Shown here: one piece after another, positions 1 through 54,300 of the stretch | Position numbering within the stretch: position 1 is the first letter of the stretch | How the letters are laid out: each line of letters starts with the position of its first letter | Origin: Mustelus asterias | Taxonomy: Eukaryota | Direction of reading: 5' to 3' | Length of the DNA stretch: 64,000 bases | NCBI RefSeq assembly: GCF_964213995.1 | Contig: NC_135801.1 | Span: 38,626,001 to 38,690,000 of the forward strand | The notes under the pieces: generated by a model | Database searches by the model: none | What the model saw: only the letters and a program-made list of their open reading frames with translations | What the model was told of the DNA's origin: nothing | Program-made: the position numbers and the translations under genes

Positions 1-487
1 GTCATGACAAAGGTAATATTGGATCTTGTCAACATGCATAGGGACTGGAAAAGTCTTGAGAGTTTTGAAAATGAGGATGAGTCTTTTAAAATAAAGGCAT
101 TGTTGGACCGAGAGCTAACGTCAGTAAACCATCAGGTGAGTGACGGATGCATACCCATTTTCTTAGGCTAACTCTTATCCTCCCTGACTAAAGGAGTGTA
201 GATCCAGGATTGGTCTGCTGAGTGGCCTGAGAGAACACGAGCCTGACAGACATCAGCCTCATTTCGAGGGACTGGCGATGATGACGAAAATCATTAAAAT
301 ATCCTGAACATGGAAAAAAAATCAGAAAAGCTAATGGATTGCCGGTCTTTGTATCTAGACGACTGAGATACAAGGGAGAGTAGAGGTCAACAAAGTCACA
401 AACCACATCGAGATTGCTGTAGGCAGTTCTGAGCACCATCCCTTAGGAAAGATGTGTTGGGTGAGATTTTCCAGGCAATATTTTTCT

Positions 488-39544: not shown

Positions 39545-40970
39545 GTGTCAGATAACAGGAGAACAGCTATTTAAGAAGGGATATAGTGATAAACCAGGGA
39601 ACTACAGACCAGTGAGTCTCACAGGTAGGGAAACTATTGGAGAAATGTCTTAAGGAGAGCATCTATCTCCAATTGAAGAGGCAAAGCTTGATCAGGGATA
39701 GTCAGCATGGCTTTGTCAGAGGGAAGTCATGCCTAACAAATTTCATTGAATTCTTTGAGGAGGTGACTAGGTGTATAGATGAGAGCAATGCAATTTATGT
39801 AGTTTATATGGATTTCAGCAAAGCCTTTGGCAAGGTCCCACATGGGAGTCTTGTAAAGAAGGTAAACACACATGGATTACAGGCTAATTTGATAAAAGTC
39901 GATTTAAAATTGGCTCAGTTGTAGGAGATGCCGGCGTTGGACTGGGGTGAACACAGTAAGAAGTCTCACAACACCAGGTTAAAGTCCAACAGGTTTATTT
40001 GGTAGCAAATACCATAAGCTTTCGGAGCACTGCTCCTTCAATAAACCTGTTGGACTTTAACCTGGTGTTGTGAGACTTCTTACTCAGTTGTAGGAGACAG
40101 AGGGTGATGACAGAAGCATGTTTTAGAGACTGGAAGCCAGTGTCCAGTGGAATCCTATTATTCATTATTTATATAAATGACATAGAAGACTATGTGGGGG
40201 GGTTAGGATTAGTAAATTTGTGATGACACAAAGATTGGCTGGGTGGTTAACAGTGTGGTTGAGTGTCTTGGGTTACAAGAAGATATAGATGAAATGGTCA
40301 GATGTGTAGATAAGTTGCAGATGGAATTTAACCCTGAAAAGTGTGAGGTGATACACTTTAGAAGGAGTAATTTGACAAGGAAGTAGTCAATGGACGGCAT
40401 GACACTAGGAAGTTCTGTGGAACAAAGGGACCTTGGCGTGTTTGTCCATAGATCTCTGAAAACAAAAGGGCATGTTGGTAGTGTGGTGAAAAAGGCATAT
40501 GGGACACTTGCCTTTATCAATCGAGGAATAGATTACAAAAGCAGGAAAGGCATGTTGGAGTTGTGTAGAACTTTGGTGAGGCCACAACTAGAGTGCTGTG
40601 TGCAGTTCTGGTCGCCACATTATTGGAAGGATGTGATTGCATTGGAGGTGGTGCAGAGGAGATTCACCAGGATGCTGCCTGGGATGGAACATTCAAGTTA
40701 TGAAGAGAGGTTGGACAGGCTTGGGTTGTTTTCATTGGAACAGAGAAGACTGAGCAAGACAAATCGAGGTGAACAAGATAATGAGAGGCATGGACAGGGT
40801 TGATAGAGAGCAGCTATTCCCCTTAGTTAAAGAGTTAGTCACGAGGCGACATAGGTTCAAGGTAAGGGGCTGGAAGTTTGGGGGAATGTGAGGAAAAACG
40901 TTTTAACCCAAAGGATGGTGATGGTCTGGAATGCAATGCCTGGGAGGAAGGTAGAGGCGAGTTGCCTCTA
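39545..40970 (+). mobile_element. CR1 LINE RT and 3' part
   Basis: PGNYRPVSLT, SQHGF..GKSCLTN, YMDFSKAF, LVRPQLE.CVQFWSP. Confidence 0.9.
39923..40084. mobile_element. Penelope-like inverted-terminal insertion inside a CR1
   Basis: Same family; flanked by duplicated ctcagttgtaggaga. Confidence 0.75.
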
Positions 40971-42259
40971 GGTTTAGAATCATAGAATTCCCTATAGTGC
41001 AGAAGGAGGCCATTTGGCCCATCGAGTCTGCACCGACCACAATCCCACCCAGGCTCTATCCCCGTTACCCCACGTATTTACCCTTCAAATCCCCTGACCT
41101 TGAAGGCAATTTAGCATAGCCAATCCACCTAACATGGGGATTGCATTGTGTTTAAATCTTCTATTTGATAAAAGTTATGCTAATTCTTGCAATTACATTT
41201 TAACTGTTCTTAAATAAACTTTGATTGATAAAAGCTTTCTAGTGGGTCACTTGAATCATACCTTATGCTCATCAATGCCAAAATTAAAGTGCAAAACTTA
41301 GAGTCTAGGCTAACTTCATAAAACACCTTGGAGTTTTTCAACTGGGTTATAACAGTAGCAGCAGTGATTAGCATCTATAAGATACATCACAGCAAGTCAC
41401 CAAGGCTCCTTCGACAATAGCAGCTGATGCATGGAAACACCACCACCTTTAAGTTCTTCTCCAATCATATACCATTCCGAGCTGGAATTATTTTTTTGTT
41501 CCTTCTCTGTCACTGGATCAAAATCCTGGAACTCCTCCCACCCCTAACAGCACCGTGAGATTATCTTCACCACAGGCACTGCAGTATTTCAAAGGGGCAG
41601 CTCACCACCACCTTCTCAAAGCTGATTAGGATTAGGCAATAAATGTTGACCTTGTCAGCAACACCAACATCCCAAGAATGAATTAAAAACAACAATGTTG
41701 TTAATGGTAAGATTTTCAATACAGGAGTTCCAGACCTGTTGAGAGGGCCCTGCATTGCTCACTTGTGTTGGTGACAAATAAGTGATTTTATTTTGTCTTC
41801 ATTTAACTTTTCTAGTTTTCCTTTTGCATAAGCATTAAAAATTTACACAAATACTTGCCCTTTAATCACTTTATCTGTATGTACCTGGTTGATACAAAAA
41901 GGACACACTGTGCTGGAGTTGAGATCCTTGGACTGTATAGCCCTTTCTTCCATATGTCTTAATTTACAATTCTGTTCCCTTCACTCGTGAGTCATGTTCT
42001 ATCTTTAACTGGCTTTCCAGTTGTGCATCAGCACAATTCTGTCACTTTGAAGAATATTGCTGCTTTAAAATGAAATGTTTTTGCAGTGAACCATTCAGCC
42101 CTGGATTAGTGGTGGCGCCTCTGTCTCAAAGTTGGCAGATTGTGGATTTGAACTGCACCCGAGAGATCTAAATGCATTAACTCGGTTGACACTTTAGGGC
42201 AGTACTGCAGCTGTTCTGCCTCAGTGGAGCTGCCTTTTACATAAAAGCTGTGCAAGGTC

Positions 42260-42555
42260 TGTGGTGAACCATCGTTGGTTACCACTGGGGGTTGTTCTTA
42301 TGTTACTGTTGGGTTAGGGTGTTGTCACTGTGGGGGTTGTATAATGTTGTTGGGTTAGGGTGTTTACCTGTGGTAAATGTTATTATGGCACATCCCGGTG
42401 GGGCCCCGCCTCCGGAGGAGAGGTATAAGACCCTCTGCTCCGGCAGGACCCCTCCAGTCTGAACTGGTGTACTCGTGTTAGTTAGTTCCATTGTTTGATA
42501 ATAAAAGCCTTCAATAACTGAAACCTTGTTCCACGTGCTTGATTGTCGCGCATCA
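42260..42555 (+). repeat. Gypsy 5' LTR
   Basis: Direct repeat of 46638-46933; TATAA at 42424-42428; AATAAA at 42500-42505. Confidence 0.97.
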
Positions 42556-42598
42556 ATTTTATTATCAAACAGAAAACTCTCAACAGTAAAAAGGGAGT

Positions 42599-45500
42599 AT
42601 GGAACAGATATTAAAACCAGATCGTCTGGCGTTGGACCCACGTGCGGTCGGTGCCGCTAACACCTTCGACCACTGGTGGAAGTGTTTCGAAGACTACCTG
42701 GCAGCCTCTGTAGCTATTACTACAGACAGCGACAAACTCCAGGTCCTCCACGCAAGGGTAAGCGACACGATTTATCTTGCGATTCGTGCGGCCACCACTT
42801 ACCCGAGGGCCGTCGAGCTCTTGAAGAAATGATACACGAGACCACCCAACGAGATACACGCTCGTTACCTCCTCGCTACACGACGTCGGCAGTCGGGCGA
42901 AACCATGGAGGACTACGCCAATGAGCTCCTGCAGCTTGCCAGGGGTTGCGATTGTAAAGACGTATCAGCCGAACAATATATGTACGACCTCGCCCGAGAC
43001 GCGTTCGTAGCAGGGGTAGGGTCCTCGTACATCCGGCTTAAGTTACTGGAGAAAGGGAACCTCAACTTGACCCAAGCGATGGAGATGGCTGAGATGCTGG
43101 AAGCGGCGTCAAAAAGCTTGGCTCTGTACCCCGAGGACCACGTGGAGACAACGTGGCAAGAGCAAGCTCAAATCTCTCCTCGCCCCGCGGGCTCGCGCTC
43201 CCATATCGATCCGGCGACGGCGGCAGCTCCAGGCGGCCAGCGATGCTATTTTTGCGGTGGGGCCAAGCATCCACGGCAACAGTGTCCTGCAAAAACGGCA
43301 ATCTGCAGCCAGTGTGGTAAAAAGGGCCACTATGCTAAAGTTTGCAGGTCGAAGTCCAAAAACAGCAGTGCAGCTTGTAACCCTCCAGAGCGGAGACAAT
43401 CTCCTTTGGCGTCGCAGTACCCACGAGGTCCGACCACGTGCGAATCCAGGACGGCGCCATCGTGGCTGATGGAGGAGGAGGAAGACCACCAGGAGTCGCT
43501 ACGTTTGGCGCCCTCACCCACGTGCGATTCATGGGGGCGGCCATCATGGTCCACGACGACTAGGAGCGACCAGCAGGGGTCCTCAGCATCAACATCGGCT
43601 GCATGCAGTGACGCCCAGGGGCCAACGGTGGCGTCGATCTCCCTGGACCAGACAAAGCACCACAGGCTTGAGAATTCAATGATGAATATCAAGGTAAATG
43701 GTCGTACTGTGTATTGTCTGTTTGACAGTGGGAGCACCGAGAGTTTCATACACCCTGACACTGCAAAAAGGTGTGGACTCCGGGTTCTACCTGCCAAACA
43801 GACAATTTCCATGGCATCACGGTCCCGGTCTGTACCGATCCAAGGACGGTGTATGGTAACCCTAGAGGTACAGGGCACAATTTACGAGCAATACAGGCTC
43901 CTTGTGTTACCTCACCTTTGTGCGCCAATTCTCCTCGGACTAAATTTTATGGTCCACATGAAGAGTGTGATCCTACAGTACGGTGGGCCACTCCCTTCAC
44001 TGGCAGTAGGGAATCAGCCGCAGCCTCCAAATTGCCCAAAGCGCCCCGCATGCAATCTTTCCACTCTGAAAATCACCACACCTTCTTTATTTAAGAATCT
44101 GGTACCAGGCTGCAAGCCCATCGCTACTAAGAGTAGGCGTTACAGCGCTGAAGACCGGATCTTTATTAGATCTGAGGTTCAGCGGCTCCTCAAGGAAGGG
44201 ATCATACAGGCCAGTGCTAGTCCGTGGAGAGCGCAGGTCGTGGTAGTCAAAAGCGGGAACAAACCTCGGATGGTCATCGACTACAGTCAGACCATTAACC
44301 GTTATACGCAGCTGGATGCGTATCCTCTCCCGCGCATTTCTGATATGCTCAATCAGATTGCGCAGTACCGAGTGTTCTCTACCATAGACCTTAAGTCCGC
44401 CTACCATCAACTCCCCATCCACCCAGAGGACCGACAATATACGGCTTTTGAGGCGGATGGTCGTCTATACCATTTTCTCAGGGTTCCATTTGGTGTCACC
44501 AATGGGGTCTCGGTCTTCCAGCGTGCTATGGACCGAATGGTGGACCAGAACGGGTTGCGGGCTACCTTCCCGTACCTGGATAACGTCACCATCTGCGGCC
44601 ATATCCAGCAGGACCATGACACAAATCTCCAACACTTTCTGCGCACTGCATCTCGCCTGAATCTGACCTATAACAGGGAGAAGTGCGTATTCCGTACGCG
44701 CAGGTTAGCCATCCTTGGATACGTGGTGGAAAAAGGTGTCATTGACCCTGATCCAGACCGTATGCGCCCCCTTACTGAACTTCCCTTGCCCGCTAGCACG
44801 AAAGCACTGAGGAGATGCCTCGGGTTCTTTTCGTATTATGCGCAGTGGGTCCCCAACTACGCGGACAAAGCCCGTCCGCTCATCAAGTCCACGACCTTCC
44901 CACTCACGCCGGAGGCCCAATTGGCCTTCAAGGCTTTGAAAAGCGACATTTCGAAAGCCACGATGCACGCGGTGGATGAATCCATCCCTTTCCAGGTGGA
45001 GAGTGATGCATCTGATTTCGCCCTAGCCGCCACACTAAACCAGGCAGGCAGGCCCGTCGCGTTCTTTTCCCGCACCCTTCAAGGCCCCGAAATTCGGCAC
45101 TCAGCGGTGGAGAAGGAGGCTCAGGCCATTGTGGAGGCAGTCAGACACTGGCGCCATTACCTGGTGGGGAAGCGGTTCACTCTGATCACGGATCAACGAT
45201 CCGTGGCGTTTATGTTCAGTAACACGCAGAGGGGCAAGATCAAGAATGATAAGATCTTGCGGTGGAGAATTGAGCTCTCCACCTATAATTACGATATTAT
45301 GTATCGTCCAGGGAAGCTCAATGAGCCCTCGGATGCCCTCTCGCGCGGAACATGCGCCATCATGCAGGAGGACCGCTTGAAGGCCCTCCACAATGATCTG
45401 TGTCATCCTGGAGTCACCCGACTCTACCACTTCGTCAAAGCCCGCAACCTGCCCTACTCGGTGGAGGATGTCAGGTCAGTGACGAGAAGCTGTCGGATTT

Positions 45501-46573
45501 GCGCGGAATGCAAACCGCACTTTTATCGACCGGACCGGGCACAATTGGTCAAGGCCACTCGCCCTTTCGAGAGGCTGAGTGTGGATTTTAAGGGCCCCCT
45601 TCCCTCAACGGACCGGAACGTCTATTTCCTCAATATAATAGATGAGTACTCCCGGTTCCCGTTTGTTGTCCCCTGTGCGGACACGTCGACTGCCACCGTG
45701 ATTAAGGCATTCAGTGAGCTTTTTACCCTGTTCAGGTACCCCTGCTACATTCATAGCGACAGGGGCTCGTCGTTCATGAGCAACGACTTGAGGCAATTCC
45801 TGCTCTCATTCGGGATTGCCTCTAGTAGAACCACGAGCTACAACCCTAGGGGTAACGGACAGGTGGAAAGGGAGAATGCTACAGTCTGGAAGGCTGTCCT
45901 ACTGGCGCTGAAATCCAGGGGCCTTCCAGTCTCCCGTTGGCAGGAGGTCCTTCCAAATGCGCTCCATTCTATCCGCTCCCTCCTGTGTACGGCAACCAAT
46001 GCTACTCCCCACGAGAGGATGTTCTCATTCCCTCGGAAGTCGTCCTCGGGGATCTCATTACCAGCCTGGTTGACGTACCCAGGACCCGTCCTTCTGCGGC
46101 GACATGTGAGGGCTCGCAGGTCCGACCCCTTGGTCGAACCGGTCCAACTCCTCCACGACAACCCTCAGTATGCCTATGTGGCATATCCTGACGGGCGAGA
46201 GGACACAGTCTCCATTCGAGACCTGGCGCCCGCAGGGGACGTAGCAACTCCTGTCGCTCCCATACCCCCTGTCACGAATCCCCTACTACTTATTTCTTCC
46301 CCAGACGTGGCGCGGTCAGCACCGGGACCAGTGCATAACAGTTATACTCCCATGTACAGCTTGCCTGAGACTCGGAGATCGGCGCCACCACAGAAGGTTC
46401 CAGGACCCCCTGCACCATCGCCTCACCAGGGTCAACCGGCCCGGGAGTCCTTGAGGGGACAGCCGGACGCTGTTTTGGAGAGAACGCCACCGCAAGCACC
46501 TGCTCCGGTTTCGCAACCGGTGTTGAGGAGATCACAGCGACGGTGCGGTCCTCCAGACCGTCTGGACTTGTGA
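42599..46573 (+). CDS. Gypsy gag-pol polyprotein, single frame, one premature TGA at 42830-42832 (1222-aa ORF open from 42905)
   Basis: ORFs 42599..42832 and 42905..46573 share a frame; two CCHC knuckles; protease LFDSGS; RT (PFGVTNG, YLDN); RNase H (ESDAS, EKE, TDQ); integrase HHCC plus DDE (VDFKG, HSDRG, QVERE). Confidence 0.93.
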
Positions 46574-46637
46574 ATTTTGTATATATATGATCTGTTTTTT
46601 GCACCCCGCCGGCCTTTGTTTTTAAAGGAGGGGTGAA

Positions 46638-46933
46638 TGTGGTGAACCATCGTTGGTTACCACTGGGGGTTGTTCTTATGTTACTGTTGGGTTAGGGTGT
46701 TGTCACTGTGGGGGTTGTATAATGTTGTTGGGTTAGGGTGTTTACCTGTGGTAAATGTTATTATGGCACATCCCGGTGGGGCCCCGCCTCCGGAGGAGAG
46801 GTATAAGACCCTCTGCTCCGGCAGGACCCCTCCAGTCTGAACTGGTGTACTCGTGTTAGTTAGTTCCATTGTTTGATAATAAAAGCCTTCAATAACTGAA
46901 GCCTTGTTCCACGTGCTTGATTGTCGCGCATCA
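46638..46933 (+). repeat. Gypsy 3' LTR
   Basis: Direct repeat of 42260-42555; preceded by a polypurine tract. Confidence 0.97.
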
Positions 46934-47339
46934 AGGTCCCATGGCGCTATTTAAAGAACAGTTGGGGAGTTCTCACGTTCTAGTCAATGGTTATCCCACA
47001 ACTAATGCCACATTCTCCCCTTGTCTGCGTGGGTTTCCTCCAGAGAGTGCGGGTCAGGTTGGTTGGCCATGCTAAATTGCCCCTTAGTGTCAGGGGGACA
47101 AGCAGGGTAAATACCTGTGGTTACAGGGATAGGGTTTGGTGGGATTGTTGTTGGTGCAGGCTCGATGGGTCGAATGCCTCCTTCTGTACTGAAGGGATTC
47201 TATGATACAATGATTCTAAAATGGATCTAATTCTGATAGTAGTACAAATGCAAAACGGCACATCAGTAGCTTGCTTTACACCCCAGCTGTTTTACTCTTC
47301 CATTGAAATCAATAGAACTGGGGTAAAACGTACAATATA

Positions 47340-51307: not shown

Positions 51308-54300
51308 CTGCAGAGAATTCAAAGAAGAATAAAAATTATACTGTGAATTTCTCAGGCTACTGTGTGTTGATATTTCTATCAATAAAACTCAGATTTTGAA
51401 AACTTGTTAGATTCACATTACAATTCCTCAGAGAATAAATGGCATCACAGTATGACAGAATATTATCATTTTCCCTGTGCAATCACTGGGCCAGAGTAAC
51501 TCGAAAAGAGAATGTTTTTTAAGGTAATCAATTATCAGACATATGCTCAGCACTTAGCATCTTTCCAATTGAAGCGAACTGCTAGGATTTTATTCTATTT
51601 CACTCAAGGAGGCAGTGAAATGGCAGGAGCATTTTTCTGGCATCATCCTATAGGATATCAGCAAAGCAGATGGGAAGGGTTAGTGCTGCATTCTCATCCC
51701 TATGGTTTGCCATGAACACCACGTGTCATTCTTTCCCATCGTACTGTATGATAATGCAGGTCGGAGGTCAGGCCCAGCTCCCAGCTTCTTCTGTTCACGT
51801 CCCATCTGATGAAAAGTGGCAGTGCATCTGAAGTAGGGCTGATTATGCCCCCATAATTGTGGAAAGTGGGAGCCATGGTAAACCTCCCCTCTTCCCACGA
51901 GTTCAGCTTATTTTAAGTGCTTCAGTTCTAGCCAAGCACTTAACTAGGAAGATGAGGTGAGAGGGGATGCAGTTTGGGTAGGATTGGAGAGGCATCAGTA
52001 AATTCTGTCTCACAACGCTTCTCCAATCAGACTTTTGAATCGTCCTATCACACATTAAGCTGATCTTTCTCTTCACCCTATCTGTAATTGCAACACTATA
52101 TTCTGCACCCTCCTTTACTTCTCCCCATGTGCTCTAAGAACGGTATGTTTTGTCTGTAACATTTGTCAGAAACAATACTTTCCACCATATCCCAATACAT
52201 GTGACAATAATAAATCAATCAATCAATCAAAGAGCAAAGATTCATCCTATCATTCCAAAATTATTCCAAGGTTGTGGGAAAACACACTGTCGACAGGGTG
52301 GCTCAACTGCACAGATAGGGAGGCAAAATAGGGGTAGGGCTATAGCGAGTGGGGATTCAATTGTGAGGGAAACACAAAGACATTTCTGCGGCCACAAGAG
52401 TGACTCCAGGTTGTTGTGTTGCCTCCCGGGTGCTAGAATCCAGGATGTCACAAAGCAGCTGCAGAACACTTTGGCTGGGGATTGGGTGAAGAGTTTTAAC
52501 AACACCAGGTTAAAGTCCAACAGGTTTATTTGGTAGCAAACACCATTAGCTTTCGGAGCGCTGGAAGAGCCAGTGGTTGTGGGGCATGTTGGTACCAATG
52601 ACACAGGTAAGTAAAGGGACGAGGTCCTGAAAGCTGAATACAGGAAGTTAGTTGGTAAATTCAGAAGCAGGTCCTCCAAGTGCCATGCACTAGCGACAGT
52701 GGAAATACGAGGATTGGTAGGATGAATGCATGGCGAGGGAGGTGGTGTAGGAGGAGCCACTGGGACAGGTTCTGCGGAAGGTGAGACTTGTACAAATTTG
52801 ATGGGTTATGACCCAACAGGATTGGGACCAATATCCGTGCAGGGTTGTTTGCTAGTGCTGTTGGGGAGGCTTTAAACTAATATGGCAGGGGGATGGGTAG
52901 CTGAGCAGTGAGTTTGAGGAGATAGAAACTAGGTTAGAAACAAAAGGCAGAAGAAGTGAAAGCAAGGGAAGAAGACATGGGAATAAAAGGCAAAAAACAA
53001 ACAGTGGCTCTTTGTCCCTAGAGAAAGGCTTAGGTTAAGGAAAAGTGGTAGGAAAACAAAATATGTCTTCACGTATGTGACAGCACAAATAGAGTTGAAT
53101 TGATATGATCTGATTGCCACTACTGAGACATAGATGCAAGGAGATAAAAGGTGGGAAATCAATATTCAGGATTATTTGATTTTTAGGAAAAACAGGCAGG
53201 AAGGAAAAGGTGGTGCGGTAGCTCTGTTAACAATCTGAGGTGGAGATGCCGGCGTTGGACTGGGGTAAACACAGTAAGAAGTTTAACAACACCAGGTTAA
53301 AGTCCAACAGGTTTATTTGGTAGCAAAAGAAAAAGCTTGTGGCTTTTGCTACCAAATAAACCAGTTGGACTTTAACCTGGTGTTGTTAAACTTCTTACCA
53401 TCTGAGGGCACAGCTTCAGAGTAAAGGGATGAATGGCCAACTCCTGTTCCTATTTCTTATGGTCTTATGGTATATTTCAGCTAAAGCTGTGGCTAACTTG
53501 ACTAAAATTGATGCTGTAACTGAACAGCATTAGGAAACTGAAGCAGGAGCTGGATGACCTCCGGATCATTCGGGAGAATGAGGAGTTTATAGATAGTAGC
53601 TTCAGGGAGGCAGTTACGCCAAAGGCACAGAGCACAGGTAATTGGGTTACCGTCAAGCGAGGGAAAGGGAAAGGACAGGCAGAGCAGGGTTCCCCTGTGG
53701 CCATTCCCCTCCACAACAGGTATACCGATTTGGATACTGTTGTGGGGGATGCCTTACCTGGGGCAAGCTGCGGCAGCCGGATCTCTGGCACTGAGTCTGG
53801 TTCTGCAGCGCAGAAGGGAGGGTGGAAGAAGAGGAGAGCGGTAGTGATAGGGGACTCGATAGTCAGAGGTGCTATGGAACATTTCCTGGGGCTGATGAAA
53901 ATCCACGAAAATCGATGGTGTTTGAATGAATTAAAATCTTGCCCAAACTCTCATATCCAACATTATTGTTGCTCAGATTAAATAACATAAAATACTTACA
54001 GAAACTCCTTCACCCAGGGTTGATTTGGATTCAGGCAGACTTTCTTATCTTGGACAGTGACACTGAGGAAAGAATAGAACAAGGACAATTAGCTCAAATG
54101 TTCTACTCTTAATAGTACAAATTAAAAATCCTTATTGCAAGAAATAGAGGTGTTTAAAGACCTTGCTTTAGTAATACTTACATGATCTGTCTCTTAGGAC
54201 AGTGGGGACTACTTTCTAAAATTTGAGTATCCTTCAAGTGCTTTGGATGGATGATCTTCGAATGTGTTTTGATACATTGACATCGCAAGTTCATTCCTGT

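What the first reader, a model, noticed from the sequence alone, without database searches (positions are those of the whole stretch)
42492..42571. Gypsy element with no tRNA PBS: the PBS position is a perfect 15-nt complement of its own LTR poly(A)-signal region (candidate self-priming system)
Seen: one nt after the 5' LTR end (42555) there is no TGG (the complement of tRNA CCA). Instead TTTTATTATCAAACA (42557-42571) is the exact reverse complement of TGTTTGATAATAAAA in the LTR (42492-42506), which contains AATAAA (42500-42505). In this duplex the LTR strand's 3' side points into U5, the geometry of a minus-strand primer. Known: Tf1/sushi-group elements self-prime using the first nucleotides of their transcript, released by RNase H. 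Inference: the only obvious TATA (42424) puts the start near 42455, so the complementary segment would be internal to R rather than at the 5' end, and I see no chromodomain in this integrase. This may be a distinct self-priming variant, and the same hairpin could mask the 5' LTR poly(A) signal, since it can form locally only at the 5' LTR. I cannot say whether this lineage is already catalogued.
Basis: partly seen in the sequence, partly recalled or inferred. Interest (0 to 1): 0.85.

Follow-up and report, generated by a model that had tools for sequence, protein, structure and literature searches.

The report
Retrotransposon clade primed by own polyA-signal
This shark-genome jumping gene and its relatives in many marine animals carry, where a host tRNA normally binds, an exact mirror copy of their own poly(A)-signal region that changes in step with it, so they likely start copying themselves with an internal piece of their own RNA, a variant of the self-priming known from fission yeast.

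Summary
Confirmed. A young 4.67-kb Gypsy element (296-nt LTRs, 5-bp TSD) has no TGG after its 5' LTR; 42557-42571 is the exact complement of 42492-42506. The pairing covaries. Among 432 family copies, two alleles of one pair disagree in only 5. In 27 representatives from this genome and marine metagenomes, 11.85 of 12 positions pair with their own LTR against 7.56 across elements. Two other Gypsy lineages here have TGG sites and at most 7 nt of complement. The LTR segment nearly always ends at the AAA of a poly(A)-like hexamer before RCC, and the site starts 1 nt after the LTR. A TATA box and an initiator-like motif at fixed spacing (71 of 79 loci) predict a start 36 nt upstream, so the primer is likely internal to R, unlike Tf1. 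No chromodomain in 40 of 40 proteins. Best reading: self-priming by a cut at AAA^RCC, with the same helix masking the 5' poly(A) signal. Start site, cut and primer are untested: no RNA data, and no tree against Tf1/sushi. The scan noted this clade twice before in other genomes. I found no paper on it, but key older papers and Repbase could not be read.

The parts
42255..42259 (+). left target-site duplication (5 bp)
   Evidence: same 5 nt at 46934-46938; 5-bp TSDs visible in most full copies
42260..42555 (+). 5' LTR, TG...CA, 296 nt
   Evidence: direct repeat with 46638-46933, one difference at 42523
42424..42430 (+). TATA box
   Evidence: sequence; GTATAAA present upstream in 79 of 90 loci of sister families
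42454..42460 (+). initiator-like motif; predicted start at A 42456 (32 nt after the TATA T)
   Evidence: YYAGT with its A at +31..34 from TATA in 71 of 79 loci; initiator consensus recalled; start not mapped
42482..42488 (+). second initiator-like motif 8 nt upstream of the arm (rival start site)
   Evidence: sequence; a similar match at +65/+67/+80/+81 in 17 of 63 loci
42492..42506 (+). LTR arm (candidate self-primer), containing AATAAA at 42500-42505; followed by conserved RCC at 42507-42509, the predicted cut edge
   Evidence: exact complement of 42557-42571; ends AAA before RCC in 26 of 27 representatives
42556..42556 (+). single spacer base between LTR end and PBS
   Evidence: 1-nt register in all 27 representatives; the base varies A/G/C/T
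42557..42571 (+). PBS position: complement of the LTR arm, no TGG
   Evidence: covarying pair 42498/42565
42599..46573 (+). single gag-pol frame (two CCHC knuckles, PR, RT with YLDN, RNase H, IN; no chromodomain), interrupted in this copy by a stop at 42830-42832
46624..46637 (+). polypurine tract
   Evidence: sequence; conserved in full copies
46638..46933 (+). 3' LTR; its copy of the arm is 46870-46884 with AATAAA at 46878-46883 and has no PBS partner downstream
46934..46938 (+). right target-site duplication

Best explanation
This is a young Gypsy LTR retrotransposon whose primer-binding site is an exact, covarying complement of its own LTR poly(A)-signal segment, and it likely primes reverse transcription with that segment instead of a tRNA. 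Shown: the complement, its covariation, its 1-nt register to the LTR end, its fixed 3' edge at AAA before RCC, and its restriction to this clade among the Gypsy lineages examined. Predicted: transcription starts near 42456; the R segment folds onto the PBS (pair probability 0.94); a second helix stacks from the RCC onward in most families. Inferred by analogy with Tf1: the element's RT/RNase H cuts at AAA^RCC and leaves a roughly 50-nt 5' fragment whose last 12-19 nt stay paired and give the 3'-OH. The remaining 10-25 nt of R would serve first-strand transfer. The same helix would hide AATAAA at the 5' LTR only, which would prevent premature polyadenylation.
For: Exact 15-nt match, 0 of 200 shuffles. 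Within the family, 315 copies carry the variant PBS base and 30 of 30 fetched carry the compensating LTR base; only 5 of 432 copies with an A or C arm base are discordant. Sister families in G000: 83 of 85 loci pair at 10 or more of 12 positions, against at most 8 in an upstream control window. Metagenome relatives: 17 of 18 loci with defined LTR pairs have an 11-19 nt exact complement, each with 0 of 200 shuffles. 27 representatives: 26 distinct PBS 12-mers, self 11.85 versus cross 7.56 of 12, 2 of 702 cross pairs perfect. Controls: two other Gypsy lineages in G000 show TGG sites and at most 7 nt of LTR complement. In several relatives gag starts within 10 nt of the site, leaving no room for a second PBS. 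TATA to YYAGT spacing is fixed at +31..34 in 71 of 79 loci, while TATA to arm end is 82-89 nt in 54 of 63 loci and 106-108 nt in 7. RNase H motifs are retained, E-[STC]-DAS in 148 of 154 proteins. Tf1 precedent for RNase H cleavage of a self-primer: PMC7175516 passages.
Against: No RNA evidence: no RNA run was listed and the four contig sets gave no molecule ends. A second initiator-like motif lies a few nt before the arm in the window and in 17 of 63 loci. Invertebrate relatives show no consistent TATA box. A long primer has no obvious stop for plus-strand copying, and no copy with a PBS extended into the pre-arm complement was found (0 matches). The second helix is weak in the window copy and in L101, L129 and L136. 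Tests meant to separate cis from trans priming were inconclusive.
Confidence: 0.55

Rival explanations
1. The primer is the same sequence but comes from a 3' copy of R: either the 3' end of genomic RNA or a short R-only transcript from solo, 5' or 3' LTRs, trimmed or cut back to the AAA edge and annealed to the PBS in cis or in trans.
For: The segment ends at the poly(A) hexamer and lies 35-55 nt from the LTR end, so it is present near the 3' end of every transcript. Two copies (L264, L268) carry the other subfamily's PBS base while both LTR arms and the body keep their own type, as copying from a trans primer would give.
Against: Two events match the point-mutation background: three other discordant copies differ only in the 5' arm. 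The local hairpin is strongly favoured, pair probability 0.72-1.00 in 25 representatives, and would occupy the PBS first. The poly(A) tail and 15-25 nt would have to be removed.
Confidence: 0.2
2. Ordinary Tf1-type self-priming: the packaged RNA starts at or a few nt before the arm from a second start site, so the primer is only the 12-19 nt arm.
For: Initiator-like motif 5-8 nt before the arm in the window and in 17 of 63 loci. The related Tf2 uses alternative start sites (PMC5341516 passages). The PBS never extends beyond the arm.
Against: The strong TATA box is 60-90 nt upstream of this position and has its own initiator-like motif at +31..34 in 71 of 79 loci. The near-arm motif is absent in 46 of 63 loci.
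Confidence: 0.15
3. The hairpin only masks the 5' LTR poly(A) signal, and priming uses something else (protein, an unknown RNA, or a distant site).
For: The arm always covers a poly(A)-like hexamer, and the helix can form locally only at the 5' LTR.
Against: Masking does not require the helix to begin exactly 1 nt past the LTR end in every family, which is where a primer's 3' end must sit to define that end. No TGG or other PBS is present in any of the 18 metagenome LTR pairs or 27 representatives.
Confidence: 0.06
4. A host tRNA or tRNA fragment primes, and the LTR match is incidental.
For: None found. Half-tRNA priming exists in Copia lineages (PMC6317226 passages).
Against: 26 distinct PBS 12-mers, each tracking its own LTR. 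Longest match to 26 distinct host tRNA genes of 7 anticodons is 5 nt (a small part of the tRNA set).
Confidence: 0.02

Closest known systems
Tf1/Tf2 (S. pombe), Tj1 (S. japonicus) and the Tf1/sushi group, including Tcn1
   Same: Gypsy elements without a tRNA PBS; the PBS is complementary to a segment of the 5' LTR; RNase H cleavage releases the primer in Tf1 (passages of PMC7175516, PMC4600332, PMC6317226, PMC5341516). An added U5-IR-like stem is named in the title of Lin and Levin 1998 (reference list only).
   Different: In Tf1 the primer is the first 11 nt of the RNA. Here the segment is 12-19 nt, predicted 35-60 nt inside R, and ends in the poly(A) hexamer. No chromodomain (0 of 40), no GP[YF] in the last 300 residues (0 of 154), two CCHC knuckles (92 of 120), and mostly YxDN.
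TAR lineage of plant Ty1/copia (Houba, Osr-1)
   Same: Predicted self-priming from an LTR-complementary PBS outside the chromoviruses, so self-priming has arisen more than once (PMC6317226 passages).
   Different: Copia domain order and plant hosts; position of the primer relative to the poly(A) signal not examined here.
Cigr-1 clade (Ciona; also molluscs) and the Mag lineage
   Same: Recalled, not from a call: Cigr-1 has 245-bp LTRs, one 3.6-kb ORF and an echinoderm-type gag, like this clade. A Styela clava relative is 62% identical. Cigr-1 is a small clade in tunicates and molluscs (PMC6238403 passages) and is listed beside 'Mag' in its supplement. Gag has weak similarity to a TGG-primed element in G000 (E 6e-6) that I class as Mag-type from recalled motifs.
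   Different: No Cigr-1 sequence was available, so identity is untested. RT-RNase H is only 26-35% identical to the Mag-type and the other TGG-primed lineage of G000, against 57-85% within the clade.
Fungal GalEa conserved hairpin site and Dictyostelium Skipper polypyrimidine tract
   Same: LTR elements lacking a tRNA PBS with unexplained priming (PMC5445492 and PMC5006619 passages).
   Different: Both papers state that no complement exists in the LTR; here it does.

Membership tests
Ty3/Gypsy LTR retrotransposon | LTRs TG...CA, TSD, PPT, domain order PR-RT-RH-IN | tested here: met
tRNA-primed LTR element | TGG-led PBS complementary to a tRNA 3' end | tested here: not met
   no TGG in window, 18 metagenome LTR pairs or 27 representatives; controls have it
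Self-priming LTR elements (sequence criterion of PMC6317226) | at least 10 nt starting 0-5 nt after the 5' LTR, complementary to the 5' LTR | tested here: met
   15 nt at +1; 17 of 18 metagenome loci; criterion read
Tf1-type self-priming mechanism | the complementary segment is the first nucleotides of the transcript | tested here: inconclusive
   promoter motifs predict a start 36 nt upstream; no RNA ends available
Tf1-type self-priming mechanism | RNase H cleavage at the 3' edge of the duplex releases the primer | not testable with these tools
   only the fixed AAA/RCC edge and retained RNase H motifs
Tf1/sushi chromoviruses | chromodomain at the integrase C-terminus | tested here: not met
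   0 of 40 proteins. Some chromoviruses are recalled to have lost it, so this lowers but does not exclude membership
Tf1/sushi chromoviruses | RT phylogeny within Chromovirus | not tested
   no chromoviral reference obtained: G000 scans for DUF4939 and Chromo gave no such element
Cigr-1 clade / Mag lineage | RT phylogeny with Cigr-1 or Mag references | not tested
   no named reference among 154 homologs; motif search in the supplements of PMC6238403 empty, one file unreadable
Mag lineage | Gag with two CCHC knuckles (recalled as a Mag feature) | tested here: met
   92 of 120 homologs have two; 24 have none, many of them partial proteins

The most novel reading that the evidence does not exclude
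A widespread animal Gypsy clade uses its poly(A) signal itself as the reverse-transcription primer, taken from the 3' end of its RNA or from short LTR-only transcripts trimmed to AAA. Solo LTRs could then supply primers in trans, and 3'-end processing would be wired directly to initiation of reverse transcription. This would be a priming mode distinct from tRNA, half-tRNA and Tf1 5'-end priming.
Probability: 0.2. Interest if true: 0.85.

Novelty: new variant of a known kind. Interest (0 to 1): 0.6.

Why it matters
Self-priming has been shown experimentally only for Tf1 and inferred for its relatives and one plant Copia lineage. This clade, with homologs in sharks, rays, a tunicate, a sea anemone, a sea cucumber and nematodes, would be a further and probably independent case, abundant in a vertebrate genome. 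Its primer appears to be the poly(A) signal, so one 12-19 bp helix could solve two general LTR problems: obtaining a primer and silencing the 5' poly(A) site. It would be independent of host tRNAs and of tRNA-fragment silencing aimed at the PBS. The prediction of RNA ends at one exact junction (AAA^RCC) is directly testable with end-mapping data.

Tried and rejected
RNA evidence: no RNA holder listed; four contig sets covered the element but gave no start or end sites. PBS-copied-from-primer test: 5 discordant copies of 432; 2 are PBS-only swaps and 3 are changes in the 5' arm only, so no signal above point mutation. Recombinant-LTR test for where strong-stop DNA ends: 10 LTRs found; most fit stepwise intermediates or single changes, 2 have a junction between 42464 and 42530, one of them in a tandem array; inconclusive. 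Search for copies with a PBS extended into the pre-arm complement: 0. A loose genome-wide pattern was swamped by other repeats and unused. Viral contigs: no relative. Outgroup hunt for a chromovirus in G000: DUF4939 0 matches; of 17 Chromo matches the 4 opened were not LTR elements, so no tree was built. A second homolog search from the Styela protein gave no named Cigr-1. The tRNA comparison covers only 7 anticodons. Metagenome rows set aside: of 80 loci 46 were examined for LTR pairs, 18 entered and 17 entered; the rest lacked the 5' end or repeated a family. In one search, 6 of 17 had an exact hairpin of at least 11 nt at the LTR end, 4 had an imperfect one (L124, L125, L128 as one family, and L129; one search scored L124 and L129), and 7 had no recognisable LTR end or no such match. 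Papers not held: PMC164487, a DOI tried for the Cigr-1 paper, PMC1369541, PMC1563812, PMC6388632, PMC11337404.

Full report
Observation. The window holds a 4,674-bp Gypsy element at 42260-46933. It has 296-nt TG...CA LTRs differing at one site, a 5-bp TSD, a PPT, and one gag-pol frame with PR, RT, RNase H and IN, interrupted in this copy by a stop at 42830-42832. One base after the 5' LTR, 42557-42571 is the exact reverse complement of 42492-42506, which contains AATAAA; there is no TGG. The match has probability about 1e-6 from LTR composition, and 0 of 200 LTR shuffles reach it.

The family. The host genome G000 (3.68 Gb; the closest named homologs are from sharks and rays) has at least 432 copies with an intact LTR-PBS junction. 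The pair 42498/42565 occurs as A-U or C-G. 315 copies carry the variant PBS base, and 30 of 30 fetched carry the compensating LTR base. Among copies with an A or C arm base only 5 are discordant; arms with G or T were not counted separately. These two alleles are one inherited event, so the weight of evidence lies in the many families below.

The clade. Homologs at 58-85% RT-RNase H identity come from sharks, rays, Styela, Actinostola, Apostichopus, Trichuris, Trichinella and many unnamed metagenome contigs. Three searches with divergent Gag N-termini gave 90 loci from several other families in G000. Of 86 distinct loci, 85 had a recognisable LTR end, and 83 of these pair at 10 or more of 12 positions with their own LTR, against at most 8 in an upstream control window. 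The two failures have foreign sequence in place of the LTR arm. In metagenome contigs, 17 of 18 loci with a defined LTR pair have an 11-19 nt exact complement starting 0-3 nt after the LTR; these include several copies of the same families. Among 27 hand-picked representatives there are 26 distinct PBS 12-mers; self-pairing averages 11.85 of 12 and cross-pairing 7.56, with A-U, U-A, G-C and C-G exchanges at positions 4-12. As in-genome controls, two other Gypsy lineages have TGG-led sites and at most 7 nt of LTR complement.

Geometry. Three things are fixed across hosts: the PBS starts 1 nt past the LTR end; the LTR arm ends in AAA of a poly(A)-like hexamer (AATAAA, ATTAAA, GTTAAA, TTTAAA); and RCC follows it (26 of 27), 30-65 nt before the LTR end. 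Folding gives arm:PBS pair probabilities of 0.72-1.00 in 25 representatives, and in most a second helix starts at the RCC, so the predicted cut lies at a junction between two stacked helices. That helix is weak in the window copy. In G000 families a TATA box is followed by YYAGT with its A at +31..34 in 71 of 79 loci, while the arm ends 82-89 nt after TATA in 54 of 63 loci and 106-108 nt in 7. The predicted start is therefore tied to TATA and not to the arm: 42456 in the window, 36 nt before the arm. A second initiator-like match lies a few bases before the arm in the window and in 17 of 63 loci, and invertebrate members show no consistent TATA box, so the start site is a prediction.

Mechanism. 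A primer's 3' end defines the U5 end of the cDNA, and this helix ends exactly there in every family, with no other PBS and often no room for one before gag. I therefore put self-supplied priming at about 0.9. How the 3'-OH arises is open. Most likely (0.55) is a Tf1-like cut at AAA^RCC that frees a roughly 50-nt 5' fragment, with the helix also masking the 5' poly(A) signal. Rivals are a primer from a 3' or solo-LTR copy of R (0.2), a start at the arm as in Tf1 (0.15), masking only (0.06) and a tRNA fragment (0.02). Genomic tests meant to separate these were inconclusive: two PBS-only swaps against three arm-only changes, ten candidate recombinant LTRs mostly explained as intermediates, and no copy with an extended PBS. 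No RNA run was listed, and the contig sets gave no molecule ends.

Comparison with known systems. Tf1 uses the first 11 nt of its RNA, cut by RNase H (PMC7175516, passages); Tj1 is proposed to do the same (PMC4600332, passages); Tf1 cDNA often keeps a PBS copy (PMC11042837, passages); Tf2 has alternative starts (PMC5341516, passages). Self-priming is predicted for Tcn1 and for the TAR Copia lineage (PMC6317226, passages). GalEa and Skipper lack both a tRNA site and an LTR complement (PMC5445492 and PMC5006619, passages). Passages of PMC3601003, PMC3670739, PMC6934838, PMC5443660 and PMC2864245 name self-priming only for the Tf1 group or do not name it. This element works like a self-primer by the published sequence criterion but is not shown to be a Tf1/sushi member: no chromodomain in 40 of 40 proteins, no GP[YF] motif in 154 of 154, two CCHC knuckles in 92 of 120. 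No tree against chromoviruses could be built. Its size and gag type resemble Cigr-1 as I recall it; PMC6238403 (passages and five supplement files searched, one file unreadable) confirms only that such a clade exists in tunicates and molluscs.

Novelty. Ten full-text searches returned no paper describing an LTR-complementary PBS in this clade or a primer overlapping the poly(A) signal. The library lacks most subscription papers, and the Cigr-1 paper, Butler et al. 2001, the Levin papers and Repbase could not be read, so the feature may be recorded there. The scan itself noted the same kind of element twice in other genomes; these are unchecked AI notes and not independent support. Verdict: real, clade-wide and covarying; a new variant of self-priming whose distinctive steps still need RNA end mapping. 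Interest 0.6.

Noticed in passing
window RT region within 42833-46573; proteins P0001-P0154: The RT catalytic motif reads YxDN instead of YxDD in the window element and in 114 of 154 motif occurrences among homologs (93 of 120 proteins). The family is young and abundant, so the variant appears functional. One paper search for YLDN found nothing.
   Followed up: partly
G000, loci L371-L382: A second young Gypsy family with frames up to 1994 aa has a run of 4-5 T between the LTR end and its TGG-led PBS.
   Followed up: no
L061, L062, L063, L065, L068, L081, L086, L110, L124 just after the arm: A local hairpin RCC(T)...(A)GGY starts at the first base after the arm in these metagenome members; in most shark families the same RCC pairs with sequence near the LTR end instead.
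   Followed up: partly
window 39950-40089 and 53274-53398: Two copies of a short element with long internal inverted repeats (50-56 nt arms, 96-98% complementary), with a third partial copy at 52489-52553.
   Followed up: no
L266 (G000:C8:138428300-138433900): A tandem array of the element: the 5' LTR is preceded by a PPT and the 3' LTR is followed by another LTR start; its two LTRs are of different subtypes.
   Followed up: partly
proteins P0012, P0030: Two members of this animal retrotransposon clade are labelled as bacterial MAG proteins in NCBI, likely host contamination of bins.
   Followed up: no
G000:C16 about 97.2-98.7 Mb: A large tandem cluster of tRNA genes, mostly Thr, at about 1.8-kb spacing.
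   Followed up: no
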